Below are positions 23,543 to 26,225 of a stretch of DNA of 52,936 nucleotides, piece after piece. The first letter of the stretch is position 1. Each line of letters begins with the position of its first letter. Made by a program: the position numbers and the translations under genes. Source of the stretch: Escherichia phage JEP7; the sequence record MT764207.1; one strand, written 5' to 3'. Under the pieces are notes generated by a model that made no database searches, was not told the DNA's origin, and saw only the letters and a program-made list of their open reading frames with translations.

Positions 23543-24085
23543 ATGACTAAGCATAAGGTGTTCCGTAACTTTACCATGTACCATCCTGAGGTAACAGAAG
23601 AGAACGAGAACATTGTAAATGCTGGTGCAATCTTCCTCAAGGATGAGGAAGGTCGCGACTGGTACAATCTAGCAAAAGAGTTCGCTATCAAATACGAAGG
23701 CGCAACGTTCTTGCAGGTAGATAAGAACGGAGTTGTAATTGCCGCACATACCGACCCGACTATGTTCCATCCTGTGGGCTGCGATATGGTTGTAACGTAC
23801 GACCCGCCCTTCAACATCTTCGAGACGGTTGGCGAATGGCTGTTTGACGGTAAAGAGTTTACGCTTAACGCACCAATGATGAAGGAGATTGCTCGTGAGC
23901 GTAAAGAACAAGCTCTGTCCATCGCTTCGACCAAGGTCAGTGTTTTACGCGACACAGTTGATAGTGGCAATGCTACCGATGAAGAAAAAGAGCTATTTGC
24001 TAAGTGGCGTGATTACAGGATTGCTGTCAATCGTCTTGACATTAACCTTGGTTCCGCTATGGTTGTTCCACCTATGCCGGAGTAA
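23543..24085 (+). CDS. tail fibre assembly protein (putative)
   Basis: 180 aa; paralog of next gene (shared ...FLKDEEGRDWYNLAKEFA... vs ...FIKDNNGNDWRKLAKELA...); position after fibre gene. Confidence 0.5.
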   Translation: MTKHKVFRNFTMYHPEVTEENENIVNAGAIFLKDEEGRDWYNLAKEFAIKYEGATFLQVDKNGVVIAAHTDPTMFHPVGCDMVVTYDPPFNIFETVGEWLFDGKEFTLNAPMMKEIARERKEQALSIASTKVSVLRDTVDSGNATDEEKELFAKWRDYRIAVNRLDINLGSAMVVPPMPE

Positions 24086-24088
24086 ACC

Positions 24089-24592
24089 ATGCAACTGTCA
24101 TTTTTCAACTTTACAGAATACAACCCACAAAGGACAGCGGAGACACTTCCGCTGATTAAGCAAGGCGTTGTATTCATCAAGGATAACAATGGTAATGACT
24201 GGCGCAAGCTGGCTAAAGAGCTGGCTAAGAATAAAGAGCTGGTTCATTACATTGTTGTGGACAAGTACAATGCTGTTGCCGCGTATGCTAACGATCCTAC
24301 GCTACTGTTTCCTGTTAATTGCGATTTGCATATTGTTGAGTCTGTCCCTGCTGATAAGTTTGCGGATTGCTATTACGAGTGGTCTTACGTTAATGGCAAA
24401 TTCGTTAAGCACTCAGAACTGCAGAAGGTGATTGCAGAAGAACGCCTGCAGGAAGAACAGGCTTGGGTTGAAGGACAACTCGACACTGAAGAAGATGAGG
24501 AACGTATTATCGCTCTCCATAAATTCCGTGCCGATTTGTTGCTGCTTGTTATGTCAGATGCGCCGCATATCGACTGGCCTGTACGACCGTAA
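24089..24592 (+). CDS. tail fibre assembly protein paralog (putative)
   Basis: 167 aa; paralogous to 23543-24085. Confidence 0.45.
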   Translation: MQLSFFNFTEYNPQRTAETLPLIKQGVVFIKDNNGNDWRKLAKELAKNKELVHYIVVDKYNAVAAYANDPTLLFPVNCDLHIVESVPADKFADCYYEWSYVNGKFVKHSELQKVIAEERLQEEQAWVEGQLDTEEDEERIIALHKFRADLLLLVMSDAPHIDWPVRP

Positions 24593-24599
24593 CTAATTG

Positions 24600-24640
24600 C
24601 TACCAGCAAGCTTGTGCAGTTGCTGGTAGTGTTTCTTTTA
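24600..24640 (+). terminator. rho-independent terminator (putative)
   Basis: CTACCAGCAA / TTGCTGGTAG 10-bp stem with 10-nt loop followed by TGTTTCTTTT, just after the stop of 24089-24592. Confidence 0.5.
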
Positions 24641-24660
24641 CGCTTGAGTCGTGCTATAAT
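24632..24660 (+). promoter_or_regulatory. promoter with extended -10 (TGcTATAAT)
   Basis: TGCTATAAT at 24652-24660 upstream of holin start. Confidence 0.4.
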
Positions 24661-24694
24661 CCACTCTGGGTATACAATAAACCGGAGATATGGG

Positions 24695-24955
24695 ATGTTT
24701 GACTACAACGACAAGTCTTCCCTTATTGGCCAGTTTGTGGCTTGGGTAACAATAACAGTAAGTACTTTATCACTAAGTGATTGGGGTACTCTTATCGGTA
24801 TACTCAGTTCCTTGGTGATGCTGATTGTTGTTACGTATAACCAAACACGGCGAACCAAAATTATGTCGGATTATTACAATCGTAAGAAGCCGATAGAGGA
24901 TGAAGTCGCATCGAAAGAAGAGGTGTTGCGTGAGTCTGAAATCAGCAGCGACTAA
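24695..24955 (+). CDS. holin (class II-like)
   Basis: 86 aa from ATG 24695 (RBS GGAGAT); two hydrophobic helices (LIGQFVAWVTITVSTLSL, WGTLIGILSSLVMLIVV) and charged C-terminus; directly upstream of lysozyme. Confidence 0.6.
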   Translation: MFDYNDKSSLIGQFVAWVTITVSTLSLSDWGTLIGILSSLVMLIVVTYNQTRRTKIMSDYYNRKKPIEDEVASKEEVLRESEISSD

Positions 24956-25475
24956 AGGAGGTTGCAGCGTGCTGGCTATCATCGGGCTTGTATTGTCGAT
25001 GACGAGTACACATGTCCGTACTAATAAAGAAGGTCTTGAAATAATCGGTAATGCAGAAGGTTGTATGCGCAACCCGTATGTATGTCCTACTGGTTACTTA
25101 ACAGTTGGCATTGGTAGCCGCATCTACAGCGATGAGCCCGCTGTACGGCGCGAAGGCCTGACAGACCAGGAGATTGCTGACCGCTGGGTCAAGAATATTC
25201 AAGAGGCTGAAAAGTGTGTTAATGACTGGTTTCACGGTAAAGACATGAACACCAACCAGTTCAGCGCCATGACCTCTATGGTATTTAACCATGGTTGCAC
25301 TAGACTCCGTAAGAACAAGGATGGTTCACCTACCAAAATATATACTGCTGCTCGTAAACAAAACTGGACGGAAATGTGTAACCGCATAACTGACTGGGAT
25401 ATGGGCGGCAAGTACAGGGGCTTGACAATACGTAAGCAAAAGGAAAAAGCGTTATGTCTAAAACCGGTGCAATAA
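24900..25475 (+). CDS. endolysin, lysozyme family with N-terminal signal-anchor (SAR)-like segment
   Basis: catalytic-region pattern EGLEIIGNAEGCMRNPYVCPTGYLTVGIG resembles T4/P21-type lysozymes; N-terminal Gly/Ala-rich weakly hydrophobic segment GGCSVLAIIGLVLSMTST; alternative GTG starts at 24930 and 24969 (the latter with AAAGGAGG RBS). Confidence 0.7.
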   Translation: MKSHRKKRCCVSLKSAATKGGCSVLAIIGLVLSMTSTHVRTNKEGLEIIGNAEGCMRNPYVCPTGYLTVGIGSRIYSDEPAVRREGLTDQEIADRWVKNIQEAEKCVNDWFHGKDMNTNQFSAMTSMVFNHGCTRLRKNKDGSPTKIYTAARKQNWTEMCNRITDWDMGGKYRGLTIRKQKEKALCLKPVQ

Positions 25476-25783
25476 TTGCAGCTATTCTCGGCATCGCCAT
25501 TGTGTTCTTGTCTTTGTGGGTACGTGAGCTGAAAGATGATGTTGCCGATCGCGACTGTACAATCAAACAGCTTAACAAAACCAATGGCGAATTGTCTGCT
25601 GCTAATCAAACGCTGATTAATTCCGTAAAGGATGAGCGTGAGGCTTCAGCCAAACGCGCTAGTAAGATAGCTGAGCTTGAGCAACAACTGCGTGACAGGA
25701 AAGGTAAATATGACGAAGCTACAAAAGATGATTCGTGCGCTAATACCGTTGCTCCTTCTGCCGTTCTTGACCTCATGCGCTGA
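25454..25783 (+). CDS. i-spanin (Rz-like)
   Basis: 109 aa; N-terminal transmembrane helix (GAIIAAILGIAIVFLSLWV) then charged coiled-coil periplasmic domain; follows endolysin. Confidence 0.6.
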   Translation: MSKTGAIIAAILGIAIVFLSLWVRELKDDVADRDCTIKQLNKTNGELSAANQTLINSVKDEREASAKRASKIAELEQQLRDRKGKYDEATKDDSCANTVAPSAVLDLMR

Positions 25784-25985
25784 TAAACCTGAAGTTGTTT
25801 ATGTTGACAGGATAGTCAAGGTTTATCCGCCTGGCGCATACATGGTTAAATGTCATAAGCCTGAATTAACCGGTAACACCTGGAAAGCAATAGGTCAGTT
25901 AGCTATTGAACGTGGAACAGCTCTTGATGATTGTGCAGACAAGATGGACAGCATAATTGACTGGAGTAACAAAGGGGCCGAGTGA
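25710..25985 (+). CDS. o-spanin (Rz1-like lipoprotein)
   Basis: ATG 25710 in the +1 frame inside/overlapping the i-spanin; signal peptide MTKLQKMIRALIPLLLLPFLTSC with lipobox LTSC. Confidence 0.55.
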   Translation: MTKLQKMIRALIPLLLLPFLTSCADKPEVVYVDRIVKVYPPGAYMVKCHKPELTGNTWKAIGQLAIERGTALDDCADKMDSIIDWSNKGAE

Positions 25986-26002
25986 AGGCCCCTTCATTTA
26001 TT
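25974..26002. terminator. bidirectional terminator hairpin between convergent gene blocks
   Basis: GGGGCC-GAGTGAA-GGCCCC hairpin flanked by A-run upstream and TTCATTTATT downstream, at the junction of + strand lysis genes and - strand genes. Confidence 0.55.
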
Positions 26003-26225
26003 AGCGTTTACCTTTTAGTTCGTTATACTGCGCACACGCTGCACACAGCACTGTACCGGGTAAAAGCTGACGTCGTTTTTCTTCAATGTCTTCCCCACAC
26101 TGGTAGCACGTCAGCGGGCTTACTCCGGTGTATCTTACTCGGTTCGATAGTGCTGCGTCCCGGGCAACTTGTTCAGCTTCAGAAGCCATATCAGTAATGT
26201 CCGATGTGCGCATAGACTCAATCAT
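26001..26225 (-). CDS. DksA/TraR-family C4 zinc-finger protein
   Basis: 74 aa with CxxC-N17-CxxC (CYQCGEDIEEKRRQLLPGTVLCAACA) characteristic of the TraR/DksA zinc finger. Confidence 0.6.
   Translation of the reverse strand: MIESMRTSDITDMASEAEQVARDAALSNRVRYTGVSPLTCYQCGEDIEEKRRQLLPGTVLCAACAQYNELKGKR

What the first reader, a model, noticed from the sequence alone, without database searches (positions are those of the whole stretch)
24695..25985. Complete lysis cassette: holin, signal-anchored lysozyme, and nested i-/o-spanin genes
The holin (two TM helices), a lysozyme whose N-terminus is a Gly/Ala-rich weak membrane segment (SAR-like), an i-spanin with an N-terminal TM helix, and an o-spanin lipoprotein (lipobox LTSC) whose gene starts inside the i-spanin gene in the +1 frame and runs past its stop. 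The lysozyme start is ambiguous (ATG 24900, GTG 24930 or GTG 24969), which changes whether the SAR segment has a charged n-region.
Basis: partly seen in the sequence, partly recalled or inferred. Interest (0 to 1): 0.3.

Follow-up and report, generated by a model that had tools for sequence, protein, structure and literature searches.

The report
Ordinary phage lysis cassette, HP1/P1 type
This is a normal, already catalogued four-gene cell-bursting module of a Salmonella phage (membrane trigger, membrane-tethered lysozyme, and two envelope-spanning proteins). The only new points are which start codon the lysozyme most likely uses and which known families its parts belong to.

Summary
Window 24695-25985 holds four co-oriented, overlapping genes. 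They are an 86-aa two-helix holin, a GH24 lysozyme, a 109-aa i-spanin, and a 91-aa lipoprotein o-spanin in the +1 frame that runs 202 nt past the i-spanin stop. That arrangement is "overlapped", not nested.

The window is a Rosemountvirus-type Salmonella phage, 99.3% identical to phages rivia and emhyr. Identical proteins are already in GenBank, and the same cassette has been described for the related phage S144.

What I add:
- **Lysozyme family.** It is a close homologue of the P1 Lyz SAR endolysin (PDB 1XJT, E=1.6e-42). It keeps the full P1 regulatory cysteine pattern: a SAR-domain Cys, then E-x-C-x6-C-x5-T.
- **Start codon.** Comparison of six lineages favours GTG 24930, which is always GTG or ATG. 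ATG 24900 is lost or followed by a stop in four lineages. GTG 24969 is GTA or GTT in three lineages, and starting there would delete the Cys that is invariant in the homologues examined. Several public records, including RefSeq, annotate 24969.
- **Holin family.** It is a distant relative of the HP1/phage-21 S holin superfamily (hhalign 88%, E=3e-6, with controls), so a pinholin mode is plausible but unproven.
- **Whole module.** It matches the Haemophilus phage HP1 cassette.

Ordinary; low interest.

The parts
24599..24639 (+). Upstream hairpin plus T-run. Probable intrinsic terminator of the tail-fibre/chaperone genes, separating them from the lysis cassette.
   Evidence: RNA fold -18.9 kcal/mol, z=-2.9. 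In sister lineages the hairpin has a different sequence but the same position, followed by a T-run (compensatory change). The consensus scanner missed it.
24652..24660 (+). TGcTATAAT: extended -10 promoter-like element for the cassette. No good -35 element.
   Evidence: TATAATCC is invariant in six lineages, although the surrounding intergenic DNA diverges. The consensus scan did not call it because the -35 is missing. Its function is inferred.
24695..24955 (+). Holin, 86 aa. Two TMDs (residues 9-27 and 30-48, window 24719-24775 and 24782-24838), a 2-3 residue loop, and a charged C-terminal tail. SD GGAG at 24684-24687.
   Evidence: phrog_1350 holin, 2e-15. Hydropathy. N-in/C-in by TMHMM/Phobius in the S144 record note. 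hhalign against the HP1+P21 holin alignment gives probability 88%, E=3e-6, with controls at or below 5.8%. The protein is 100% identical in about 30 public phage records.
24930..25475 (+). SAR endolysin, 181 aa from GTG 24930 (SD GAGGT at 24920-24924). It overlaps the holin by 26 nt. Features: n-region MSLKSAATK; SAR segment residues 10-27 (24957-25010) with Cys12 (24963-24965); catalytic Glu43 (25056-25058); Cys45 (25062-25064); Cys52 (25083-25085); Thr58 (25101-25103).
   Evidence: Pfam PF00959, 71.9 bits. P1 Lyz 1XJT, E=1.6e-42, with the alignment reaching into the SAR region. E-x-C-x6-C-x5-T in 86 of 87 homologous loci, with the Cys 31 residues before the Glu in those 86. Start-codon comparison.
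24900..24929 (+). Upstream in-frame extension (ATG 24900, MKSHRKKRCC). Probably not part of the endolysin.
   Evidence: The equivalent codon is ACG in the SE4 lineage. It is followed by an in-frame TAG in the ZCSE2/S144 lineage, and the frame is closed by a stop in the KM/L011 lineage. The holin frame over the same bases is conserved.
24955..24971 (+). Internal SD-like AAGGAGGT (24955-24962) plus GTG 24969. This is the start used by several public annotations. It is probably a by-product of the Lys-Gly-Gly codons and the holin stop codon.
   Evidence: The GTG is GTA in the ZCSE2 lineage and GTT in KM/L011. The SD degrades to AAGGTGGT or AAGCTGGT. A product starting here has no hydrophobic segment above threshold and lacks the Cys conserved in the homologues.
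25454..25783 (+). i-spanin, 109 aa. N-terminal TMD at residues 5-23 (25466-25522), helical/coiled periplasmic domain, conserved Cys95. It overlaps the endolysin by 22 nt.
   Evidence: Pfam DUF2570, 32.1 bits. phrog_214 Rz-like spanin, 2.7e-15. KD 2.62. Conserved in six lineages.
25710..25985 (+). o-spanin precursor, 91 aa, in the +1 frame relative to the i-spanin. It overlaps the i-spanin by 74 nt and runs 202 nt past its stop. Lipobox LTSC, Cys23 (25776-25778), Ala at +2. Two further conserved Cys residues.
   Evidence: Pfam LysC, 71.5 bits. phrog_456, 1.1e-21. An ATG at the 25710-equivalent preceded by a purine-rich stretch (AAAGG/AAGGG/AGGAAA) in every lineage examined; the 25728 ATG is not conserved. 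The S144 homologue was detected by MS with 1 peptide.
25972..25994 (.). Bidirectional intrinsic terminator. It ends the cassette and the convergent DksA/TraR-type gene (26001-26225, minus strand). The o-spanin stop codon lies in its loop.
   Evidence: Terminator scan. Fold on the + strand -16.1 kcal/mol, z=-3.95; on the - strand -18.8 kcal/mol, z=-5.2.

Best explanation
This is the late lysis operon of a Rosemountvirus-type Salmonella myophage. It is built like the Haemophilus phage HP1 cassette. All functional steps below are inferred from homology, not shown.

**Transcription.** It probably starts after a terminator hairpin, at a conserved TATAAT element, and ends at a bidirectional terminator.

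**1. Holin.** An 86-aa class II holin with two TMDs (N-in/C-in) accumulates in the inner membrane. At a critical level it depolarises the membrane. It is a distant relative of the HP1 and phage-21 S holins, so small "pinholes" are plausible.

**2. Endolysin.**
- The 181-aa endolysin is translated from GTG 24930, 26 nt inside the holin gene.
- It is exported by Sec and tethered by a weakly hydrophobic, uncleaved N-terminal SAR segment (residues 10-27).
- Its periplasmic lysozyme domain is kept inactive by a Cys45-Cys52 disulfide next to the catalytic Glu43, as in P1 Lyz.
- When the membrane is de-energised, the SAR segment leaves the bilayer. Cys12 then attacks that disulfide, freeing the active site (E43-C52-T58 triad). 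Murein is then degraded.

**3. Spanins.** The i-spanin (type II inner-membrane protein) and the lipoprotein o-spanin (Cys23 lipidated, sorted to the outer membrane) already bridge the periplasm. Once the murein meshwork is gone, they fuse the inner and outer membranes.
For: **Identity of the phage and cassette**
- 99.3% DNA identity to Rosemountvirus phages. Relatives annotate holin, endolysin and Rz-like spanins here.
- Family matches for all four proteins.

**Endolysin**
- The best solved homologue is P1 Lyz (1XJT/1XJU, E=1.6e-42). It aligns E43/C45/C52/T58 with P1 E42/C44/C51/T57 and reaches into the SAR region.
- The E-8X-C/D-5X-T triad, and the regulatory role of the triad Cys in P1, are described in PMC3556154.
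- 86 of 87 homologous loci keep E-x-C-x6-C-x5-T. In those 86 loci (30 distinct N-termini) a Cys lies exactly 31 residues before the Glu, at the start of the hydrophobic segment.

**Start codon**
- The 24930-equivalent is GTG, GTG, GTG, GTG, ATG, ATG in six lineages.
- The 24900 ATG is absent or followed by a stop in four of the six.
- The 24969-equivalent is GTA or GTT in three of the six.
- Between the holin stop and 24969, every difference between the window and ZCSE2 is synonymous in the lysozyme frame, including AGC to TCC.

**SAR segment**
- It is weaker than the i-spanin TMD (KD18 1.77 against 2.79) and 39-50% G/A/S/T.

**Holin**
- Two TMDs and a charged tail.
- hhalign against HP1/P21 holins gives 88%, E=3e-6. 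Controls: reversed alignment 1.4%, shuffled alignments at most 5.8%.
- Distant P1-Lyz-like endolysins are always preceded by an overlapping Phage_holin_2_3/2_1 holin.
- HP1 itself has the same order: hol, SAR-like lys, i-spanin, +1 o-spanin.

**Spanins**
- Lipobox, +1 frame and conserved Cys residues across lineages.
- MS detection of the endolysin, i-spanin and o-spanin homologues in S144, and of the holin, lysozyme and i-spanin homologues in fHy-Eco03.
Against: - No experiment exists for this phage group. Export, membrane release, disulfide isomerisation, hole size and spanin function are all inferred.
- GTG 24930 has only a moderate SD (GAGGT). In this lineage a perfect SD plus GTG sits at 24969, so some internal initiation cannot be excluded.
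- The SAR segment is short (about 16-18 residues) and less hydrophobic than those of P1 Lyz or R21 (KD18 1.77 against 2.21 and 2.27).
- Signal-peptidase cleavage could not be tested.
- The holin fails the Pfam gathering threshold for Phage_holin_2_3 (12.8 bits against 28.8). It matched the P21-only alignment poorly (3.5%). Its profiles are thin (Neff 1.4).
- It lacks the dual-start (antiholin) motif of S21.
- P1 shows that SAR endolysins can also work with canonical large-hole holins (PMC9025707).
Confidence: 0.8

Rival explanations
1. The endolysin starts at GTG 24969 (168 aa), as annotated in RefSeq and several GenBank records. It would then be a soluble cytoplasmic lysozyme that depends strictly on a large-hole holin.
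For: A perfect SD, AAGGAGGT, lies 7 nt upstream, and this start gives no gene overlap. It is the start chosen in SPLA2, yarpen RefSeq, UPF_BP2 and rivia.
Against: - The codon is GTA in the ZCSE2/S144 lineage and GTT in KM/L011, and the SD is not conserved.
- The 13 codons upstream are under purifying selection in the lysozyme frame, even after the holin stop.
- This start would delete the Cys kept by 86 of 87 homologous loci and the basic n-region.
- The product has no hydrophobic segment above KD 1.2.
- P1 Lyz homology extends upstream of it.
Confidence: 0.07
2. The endolysin starts at ATG 24900 (191 aa). This gives a SAR or signal-anchor domain with a long, highly basic n-region (MKSHRKKRCC...) and hence a tighter membrane anchor.
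For: ATG is the canonical start and gives the longest ORF. It is used in the KE24 and SE-SHZ-R records. It is present in the window and SE13 lineages.
Against: - The equivalent codon is ACG in SE4. It is followed by an in-frame TAG in ZCSE2/S144. The frame is closed by a stop in KM/L011.
- GAGG abuts the ATG with no spacer.
- Distant homologues have only about 9-14 residues before the Cys.
- The 10 extra codons vary freely, while the overlapping holin frame is conserved.
Confidence: 0.08
3. The N-terminal hydrophobic segment is a cleavable Sec signal peptide. The lysozyme is secreted as a soluble periplasmic enzyme, controlled only by the caging disulfide or by membrane energisation.
For: The hydrophobic core is short (about 11 strongly hydrophobic residues) and is followed by small residues (V-L-S / T-S-T) that could fit a -3/-1 rule (read directly from the sequence; no predictor was available).
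Against: - The homologue P1 Lyz is an uncleaved SAR protein. Its crystal structure includes the N-terminal domain (1XJT chain of 191 residues aligned from residue 5).
- The fixed spacing of the N-terminal Cys makes sense only if the segment stays attached.
Confidence: 0.05
4. The holin is a canonical large-hole holin rather than a pinholin. The SAR endolysin would be activated simply by the depolarisation that accompanies hole formation, as with P1 LydA.
For: P1 uses canonical holins (LydA, LydC) together with its SAR endolysin (PMC9025707; PMC6116005). Hole size cannot be read from sequence. The window holin lacks the dual-start motif of S21. Its TMD1 is only moderately weak (KD 1.49, 42% G/A/S/T).
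Against: - Profile-level relationship to the superfamily that contains the prototype pinholin S21.
- A conserved small-xxx-small motif, G31/G35/S39, in TMD2.
- Tight genetic linkage to a SAR endolysin, which is typical of pinholin pairs (PMC9025707).
Confidence: 0.4

Closest known systems
Phage P1 Lyz, the prototype SAR endolysin activated by disulfide isomerisation (PDB 1XJT inactive, 1XJU active)
   Same: - GH24 fold and about 46% identity.
- N-terminal weakly hydrophobic segment containing a Cys.
- Catalytic E-x8-C-x5-T, with a second Cys two residues after the Glu. Window E43/C45/C52/T58 corresponds to P1 E42/C44/C51/T57.
   Different: - The SAR Cys is 31 residues before the Glu, against 29 in P1.
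- The SAR segment is more Ser/Thr-rich and less hydrophobic.
- The gene sits in a compact cassette and overlaps its holin. P1 lyz is unlinked to lydA/lydB (PMC9025707).
Haemophilus phage HP1 lysis cassette (hol, lys, orf25 and an unannotated +1 lipoprotein ORF)
   Same: - Same order and overlaps: a 2-TMD holin overlapping a Lyz-like endolysin that has an N-terminal Cys-containing hydrophobic segment and E-x-C-x6-C-x5-T.
- Then an i-spanin with an overlapped +1-frame lipobox ORF.
- The holin families are related at profile level.
   Different: - About 39% endolysin identity, and only over the catalytic domain.
- The window holin is too diverged to pass the Pfam Phage_holin_2_3 threshold.
- HP1 is a temperate P2-like phage, while this is a virulent-type 53-kb myophage.
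Phage 21 S21 pinholin / R21 SAR endolysin pair
   Same: - Class II holin with two TMDs, a short loop containing S-x-S-x-W, and an IG-x-L-x-SLV motif in TMD2.
- It is paired with a SAR endolysin.
   Different: - R21 uses Asp in the triad and no disulfide regulation (phi458 homologue sequence).
- S21 has a dual-start antiholin, which is absent here.
- The direct profile match to P21 S alone is not significant (3.5%).
Phage P2 LysB/LysC, the two-component spanins with overlapped architecture
   Same: - The o-spanin matches Pfam LysC (71.5 bits).
- The i-spanin gives a weak TIGR03495 LysB hit (E=0.0078).
- The +1 frame gene starts inside the i-spanin gene and extends beyond it. This is the commonest class in Kongari et al., 228 of 528 systems.
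   Different: - Below the NCBIfam equivalog cut-offs.
- The i-spanin belongs to DUF2570/phrog_214.
Salmonella phage S144 (Loughboroughvirus) lysis cassette, ORF34-37 (PMC7432712)
   Same: - Direct orthologue: type II holin, endolysin starting at the GTG equivalent to 24930, i-spanin, +1 o-spanin.
- The authors recorded the P1 SAR-endolysin hit and detected gp35-37 by MS.
   Different: - 87-93% protein identity.
- No ATG 24900-type extension and no internal GTG.
- Lipobox S-T-S-C instead of L-T-S-C.

Membership tests
GH24 / T4-type phage lysozyme (Pfam PF00959) | Profile match above the curated threshold | tested here: met
   71.9 bits against a cut-off of 22.3, E=7.7e-20. phrog_7 endolysin, 3.4e-48.
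GH24 / T4-type phage lysozyme (Pfam PF00959) | Catalytic triad Glu-8X-Asp/Cys-5X-Thr (definition in PMC3556154) | tested here: met
   E43-x8-C52-x5-T58, aligned to P1 E42/C51/T57.
SAR (signal-anchor-release) endolysin | N-terminal TMD-like segment enriched in weakly hydrophobic residues, preceded by a basic n-region | tested here: met
   With the GTG 24930 start: K4 and K9, then GGCSVLAIIGLVLSMTST (50% G/A/S/T, mean KD 1.67), against the i-spanin TMD at 2.62. This is not met if the start is 24969.
SAR (signal-anchor-release) endolysin | Sec-dependent export, no signal-peptidase cleavage, spontaneous or pmf-dependent release, holin-independent lysis | not testable with these tools
   Needs expression, fractionation and azide or energy-poison experiments. 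No signal-peptide predictor was available.
P1 Lyz-type disulfide-regulated SAR endolysin | Sequence homology to P1 Lyz that includes the N-terminal domain | tested here: met
   1XJT_A, E=1.6e-42, query 15-188 aligned to chain 5-180.
P1 Lyz-type disulfide-regulated SAR endolysin | Cys pair at Glu+2 and Glu+9 (the caging disulfide), plus a free Cys in the SAR segment | tested here: met
   C45, C52 and C12. The pattern is kept in 86 of 87 homologous loci, with a fixed 31-residue Cys-to-Glu spacing.
P1 Lyz-type disulfide-regulated SAR endolysin | Actual disulfide isomerisation on membrane release | not testable with these tools
   Requires thiol-trapping biochemistry or Cys mutants. The mechanism is known for P1 only (Xu et al. 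2005, cited).
Holin superfamily II (Pfam Phage_holin_2_1 P21 S / Phage_holin_2_3 HP1) | Profile match above the Pfam gathering threshold | tested here: not met
   Phage_holin_2_3 12.8 bits against 28.8 (E=0.13). No Phage_holin_2_1 hit.
Holin superfamily II (Pfam Phage_holin_2_1 P21 S / Phage_holin_2_3 HP1) | Remote homology by profile-profile comparison | tested here: met
   - hhalign A2 against A4 (HP1-type plus P21-type holins): probability 88%, E=3e-6, over both TMDs.
- Controls: reversed 1.4%; 30 global shuffles at most 1.0%; 30 local block shuffles at most 5.8%.
- Against P21-type holins alone, only 3.5%.
- The profiles are thin (Neff 1.4), so this is suggestive, not proof.
Holin superfamily II (Pfam Phage_holin_2_1 P21 S / Phage_holin_2_3 HP1) | Small protein, two TMDs N-in/C-in, charged C-terminus, gene adjacent to the endolysin gene | tested here: met
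   86 aa, TMDs at residues 9-27 and 30-48, acidic/basic tail, 26-nt overlap with the endolysin. TMHMM/Phobius note in the S144 record.
Pinholin (S21 68 type) | Dual-start motif giving an antiholin with an extra N-terminal positive charge | tested here: not met
   The N-termini MFDYNDK, MHDLFER and MLNNLSEK each have a single Met. The HP1-type holins in distant loci do have MRML/MKML-type motifs.
Pinholin (S21 68 type) | Forms holes of about 2 nm that cannot release a cytoplasmic endolysin; TMD1 leaves the membrane | not testable with these tools
   Needs a complementation test with lambda R, as in PMC9025707.
Two-component spanin, overlapped architecture (Kongari et al. 2018) | i-spanin: N-terminal TMD plus periplasmic helical domain | tested here: met
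   TMD at residues 5-23, KD 2.62. DUF2570 32.1 bits against 26.6, with coiled-coil-type secondary hits. phrog_214.
Two-component spanin, overlapped architecture (Kongari et al. 2018) | o-spanin: lipoprotein signal with a lipobox Cys and no Asp at +2 | tested here: met
   MTKLQKMIRALIPLLLLPFLTS|C-A-D. Lipobox conserved as L[TA]SC or STSC in the sister lineages. Pfam LysC 71.5 bits. Lipidation itself was not tested.
Two-component spanin, overlapped architecture (Kongari et al. 2018) | The o-spanin gene starts inside the i-spanin gene, out of frame, and extends beyond its stop | tested here: met
   +1 frame, 74-nt overlap, 202 nt beyond the i-spanin stop. It is therefore "overlapped", not "embedded" or nested.

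The most novel reading that the evidence does not exclude
In the Rosemountvirus lineage only, the perfect Shine-Dalgarno AAGGAGGT (24955-24962) and GTG 24969 inside the SAR-coding region may be a real second initiation site. If so, the gene would make two isoforms. One is the full-length, Cys12-bearing SAR endolysin. The other is a 168-aa form with no anchor and no activating Cys, which stays in the cytoplasm. That would be a built-in second pool or regulator of lytic activity, something not described for SAR endolysins.

A milder version: the 26-nt holin/endolysin overlap, which is conserved across the whole P1-Lyz/HP1-type module, may set the holin-to-endolysin ratio by translational coupling.
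Probability: 0.1. Interest if true: 0.4.

Novelty: already known. Interest (0 to 1): 0.15.

Why it matters
The biology is textbook: holin, SAR endolysin and spanins. The practical value is in annotation.
- RefSeq and many GenBank records for this phage genus start the endolysin at a codon that removes its membrane signal and its regulatory cysteine.
- Some records omit or shorten the o-spanin.
- These phages are being developed against Salmonella, and their endolysins are candidate enzybiotics. A recombinant "endolysin" cloned from the wrong start would behave differently, for example in toxicity, solubility and redox regulation.

The work also shows two further points.
- The holin of this genus belongs, distantly, to the HP1/phage-21 S superfamily.
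- The holin plus P1-Lyz-type endolysin pair travels as one overlapping module across very different phages.

Tried and rejected
- **Sigma-70 consensus scan.** It found no promoter upstream of the holin and missed the upstream hairpin. I relied on the cross-lineage alignment and folding instead.
- **RNA structure around the endolysin start (24905-24985).** It is no more stable than shuffled sequence (z=+0.74), so there is no sign of a structured coupling element.
- **NCBIfam.** It gave nothing above its cut-offs for any of the four proteins.
- **Direct tests of the holin against phage-21 S.**
  - BLASTP gave E=7e-4 for a single comparison.
  - hhalign against five P21-type sequences gave 3.5%.
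  - Both were inconclusive.
  - The link appeared only when the HP1-type holins found next to distant endolysin homologues were added.
  - I recalled the S21 71 sequence from memory. I then verified it as 100% identical to a gene of phage phi458 that precedes an R21-like SAR endolysin.
- **Literature.**
  - Kuty et al. 2010 and Sun et al. 2009 are not held. The residue-level P1 mechanism therefore rests on the 1XJT alignment, PMC3556154 and my own knowledge of Xu et al. 2005.
  - The fHy-Eco03 toxicity screen shows only that the o-spanin homologue g48 is non-toxic alone.
- **Not run.** I did not run structure prediction. With E=1e-42 to a solved structure it would add nothing, and model coordinates for Cys-Cys distances are not returned.
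Full report
**What is there**

- Holin: ATG 24695 to TAA 24955, 86 aa.
- Lysozyme: a frame open from ATG 24900 to 25475, with further in-frame starts at GTG 24930 and GTG 24969.
- i-spanin: 25454-25783, 109 aa.
- o-spanin: a +1-frame ORF with ATG at 25710 and 25728, ending at 25985, with the lipobox L-T-S-C.

Consecutive genes overlap by 26 nt (counting from GTG 24930), 22 nt and 74 nt.

All four match lysis families well beyond chance:
- Pfam Phage_lysozyme 7.7e-20, DUF2570 1.3e-07, LysC 5.6e-20, all above their gathering thresholds.
- PHROG families: holin 2e-15, endolysin 3.4e-48, Rz-like spanins 2.7e-15 and 1.1e-21.

Hydropathy shows two segments in the holin, one weak segment at the lysozyme N-terminus and one strong TMD in the i-spanin.

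**Where it comes from**

- The 1.4-kb region is 99.3% identical to Salmonella phages rivia and emhyr, and more than 96% identical to about 40 other Rosemountvirus genomes.
- The holin is 100% identical in about 30 public records. The lysozyme is 100% identical in several.
- Relatives annotate the genes as holin, endolysin and Rz-like spanins.
- The paper on the related Loughboroughvirus S144 describes the same cassette: type II holin, endolysin, i-spanin, +1-frame o-spanin. It notes the HMMER hit to the P1 SAR endolysin, and it detected the endolysin, i-spanin and o-spanin by mass spectrometry (PMC7432712).
- The fHy-Eco03 record reports MS detection of the holin, lysozyme and i-spanin homologues.

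The cassette is therefore already known.

**The lysozyme is a P1 Lyz-type SAR endolysin**

- The best solved relatives are P1 Lyz 1XJT and 1XJU (E=1.6e-42 and 7.6e-39). The alignment continues into the N-terminal hydrophobic region.
- Numbered from GTG 24930, the catalytic triad is E43-x8-C52-x5-T58. [quoted passage not shown]
- A second Cys (C45) lies two residues after the Glu, and a Cys (C12) lies at the start of the hydrophobic segment. They correspond to P1 E42, C44, C51, T57 and C13, read from the 1XJT alignment.
- In P1 the triad Cys is held in a disulfide until activation. To my knowledge of Xu et al. 2005 (cited), C44-C51 cages the active site, and the SAR-domain C13 isomerises it after membrane release.
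- Among 87 homologous loci (the window, 6 from phage records and 80 from IMG/VR), 86 keep E-x-C-x6-C-x5-T. The exception is an ORF that breaks off after 30 residues.
- In those 86 loci (30 distinct N-termini), the N-terminal Cys lies exactly 31 residues before the Glu. That fixed spacing argues that the N-terminal segment is a functional, retained part of the enzyme.

**Which start codon**

Public records disagree:
- The 24969-equivalent is used in SPLA2, yarpen RefSeq, UPF_BP2 and rivia.
- The 24900-equivalent is used in KE24 and SE-SHZ-R.
- The 24930-equivalent is used in S1 (labelled "SAR-endolysin"), S144, vB_SE1_KM, fHy-Eco03 and SOI901.
- ZCSE2 RefSeq starts even further downstream.

Aligning six lineages settles most of it:

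| Position | Codon in the six lineages |
|---|---|
| 24930 | GTG, GTG, GTG, GTG, ATG, ATG |
| 24900 | ATG in two; ATG followed by an in-frame TAG in ZCSE2; ACG in SE4; frame closed by a stop in KM and L011 |
| 24969 | GTG in three; GTA in ZCSE2; GTT in KM and L011. The SD-like AAGGAGGT decays to AAGGTGGT or AAGCTGGT |

- Between the holin stop (24955) and 24969 there is no second reading frame to impose constraint. There, all window-versus-ZCSE2 differences are synonymous in the lysozyme frame: GGA to GGT, TGC to TGT, AGC to TCC.
- Distant homologues have 9-14 residues with 2-3 basic charges before the Cys. This matches MSLKSAATKGG-C.
- A product starting at 24969 has no hydrophobic segment above threshold and lacks the conserved Cys.
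- I therefore place the start at GTG 24930 (SD GAGGT, 5-nt spacer) with about 80% confidence.
- The strong internal SD probably arises from the Lys-Gly-Gly codons plus the holin stop codon. It probably explains the gene-caller choice, since gene callers are known to be biased against overlapping genes (PMC6139136).

**The holin**

- It is confined, at tblastn sensitivity, to about 60 phages of this group, and it fails Pfam thresholds.
- In the distant loci that carry P1-Lyz-like endolysins, the upstream gene is always a 73-91-aa protein. It has one strong and one weaker hydrophobic segment, the same two-segment layout as the window holin.
  - Its stop lies 7-19 nt before the endolysin's Cys codon, so the two genes overlap.
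  - The three representative upstream proteins scanned all hit Pfam Phage_holin_2_3 (HP1 holin) and Phage_holin_2_1 (phage 21 S). Two of the three score above both gathering thresholds.
- A profile of the window's holin family matches an alignment of these plus P21-type holins at 88% probability, E=3e-6, over both TMDs.
- Controls were a reversed alignment (1.4%), 30 global column shuffles (at most 1.0%) and 30 local block shuffles (at most 5.8%).
- Against P21-type sequences alone the match is not significant, and the profiles are thin. I therefore call it a probable distant member of holin superfamily II, not a proven one.
- Shared features are the S-x-S-D/Q-W loop and a small-xxx-small motif (G31, G35, S39, all invariant).
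- It differs from S21 in lacking a dual-start antiholin motif.
- Whether it makes pinholes or large holes cannot be read from sequence. P1 shows that SAR endolysins work with both kinds (PMC9025707; PMC6116005).

**The spanins**

- The i-spanin has a strong N-terminal TMD and a helical periplasmic domain.
- The o-spanin has the signal MTKLQKMIRALIPLLLLPFLTS|C, with Ala at +2, so it lacks the Asp inner-membrane retention signal.
- The ATG at the 25710-equivalent, preceded by a purine-rich stretch, is conserved in every lineage examined. The 25728 ATG used by several records is not.
- Conserved periplasmic cysteines are i-spanin C95 and two in the o-spanin. This fits the disulfide-linked complexes that Kongari et al. 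describe as general.
- The gene arrangement is their "overlapped" class, the commonest one (228 of 528 systems). It is not the lambda-type "embedded" or nested class.

**Expression signals**

- Upstream, a hairpin plus T-run (24599-24639; -18.9 kcal/mol, z=-2.9) is followed by an invariant TATAATCC (TATAAT at 24655-24660, with TG at 24652-24653) and a GGAG SD.
- The hairpin has a different sequence but the same position in other lineages.
- Downstream, a strong bidirectional terminator (25972-25994) is shared with the convergent DksA/TraR-type gene.
- The cassette therefore looks like its own transcription unit. This is inferred.

**Closest known module**

Haemophilus phage HP1 has the same layout:
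- hol, overlapping lys by 8 nt;
- lys, with an N-terminal Cys-containing hydrophobic segment and E-G-C-x6-C-x5-T;
- an i-spanin (orf25);
- an unannotated +1-frame lipobox ORF that runs past the i-spanin stop.

The Rosemountvirus cassette is thus an HP1-type module whose endolysin is of the P1 Lyz regulatory type.

**Verdict**

The feature is ordinary and already known. What this analysis adds:
- a comparative resolution of the endolysin and o-spanin starts, and the finding that RefSeq and several GenBank records mis-start them;
- the complete P1-type cysteine set with fixed spacing;
- a probable superfamily assignment for the holin.

All mechanistic steps (Sec export, SAR release, disulfide isomerisation, hole size, membrane fusion) are inferred from homology. 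None was or could be tested here.

Noticed in passing
window 24955-24971: A perfect Shine-Dalgarno sequence, AAGGAGGT, lies 7 nt before GTG 24969, inside the SAR-coding part of the endolysin gene and overlapping the holin stop codon. It occurs only in the Rosemountvirus lineage. It probably explains why several public annotations, including RefSeq NC_048863, truncate the endolysin.
   Followed up: yes
L012-L086 (IMG/VR loci), about 100 nt upstream of each endolysin match: The P1-Lyz-like endolysins examined have the SAR-domain Cys exactly 31 residues before the catalytic Glu. Each is preceded by an overlapping small two-segment holin. The three representatives scanned hit the Pfam HP1 and P21 S holin families, and many carry dual-start motifs (MRML.., MKML..). 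The holin plus endolysin pair seems to move as one module.
   Followed up: partly
L098 (Haemophilus phage HP1, NC_001697.1), locus 1624-1893: A +1-frame ORF with a lipobox (LLAC) overlaps orf25 (the i-spanin) and extends past its stop. It is not annotated in the RefSeq record and is probably the HP1 o-spanin.
   Followed up: partly
PP583539.1 (hit H108): A 53-kb record named "Listeria phage 220426122051", with host given as Listeria monocytogenes, carries a holin 100% identical to the window's. It matches the window's 1.4-kb cassette DNA like the Salmonella Rosemountviruses. This is probably a host mislabel or a contaminant phage.
   Followed up: no
window 23543-24085 and 24089-24592 (+): Two tandem paralogous genes sit just upstream of the cassette. 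Relatives annotate them as tail fibre assembly or chaperone proteins. They are followed by the terminator-like hairpin.
   Followed up: no
window 26001-26225 (-) and 25972-25994: A DksA/TraR-type C4 zinc-finger gene converges on the cassette and shares its bidirectional terminator. The S144 paper suggests this gene product may control late transcription. In phage rivia, the closest relative, the annotated ORF at this position is shorter (144 nt against 225 nt).
   Followed up: no
window 24652-24662: TGcTATAATCC upstream of the holin is invariant across lineages whose flanking intergenic DNA has diverged, and no -35 element is recognisable. It could be a phage-specific late promoter type. The promoter annotated in S144 lies about 20-50 nt further upstream.
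   Followed up: partly
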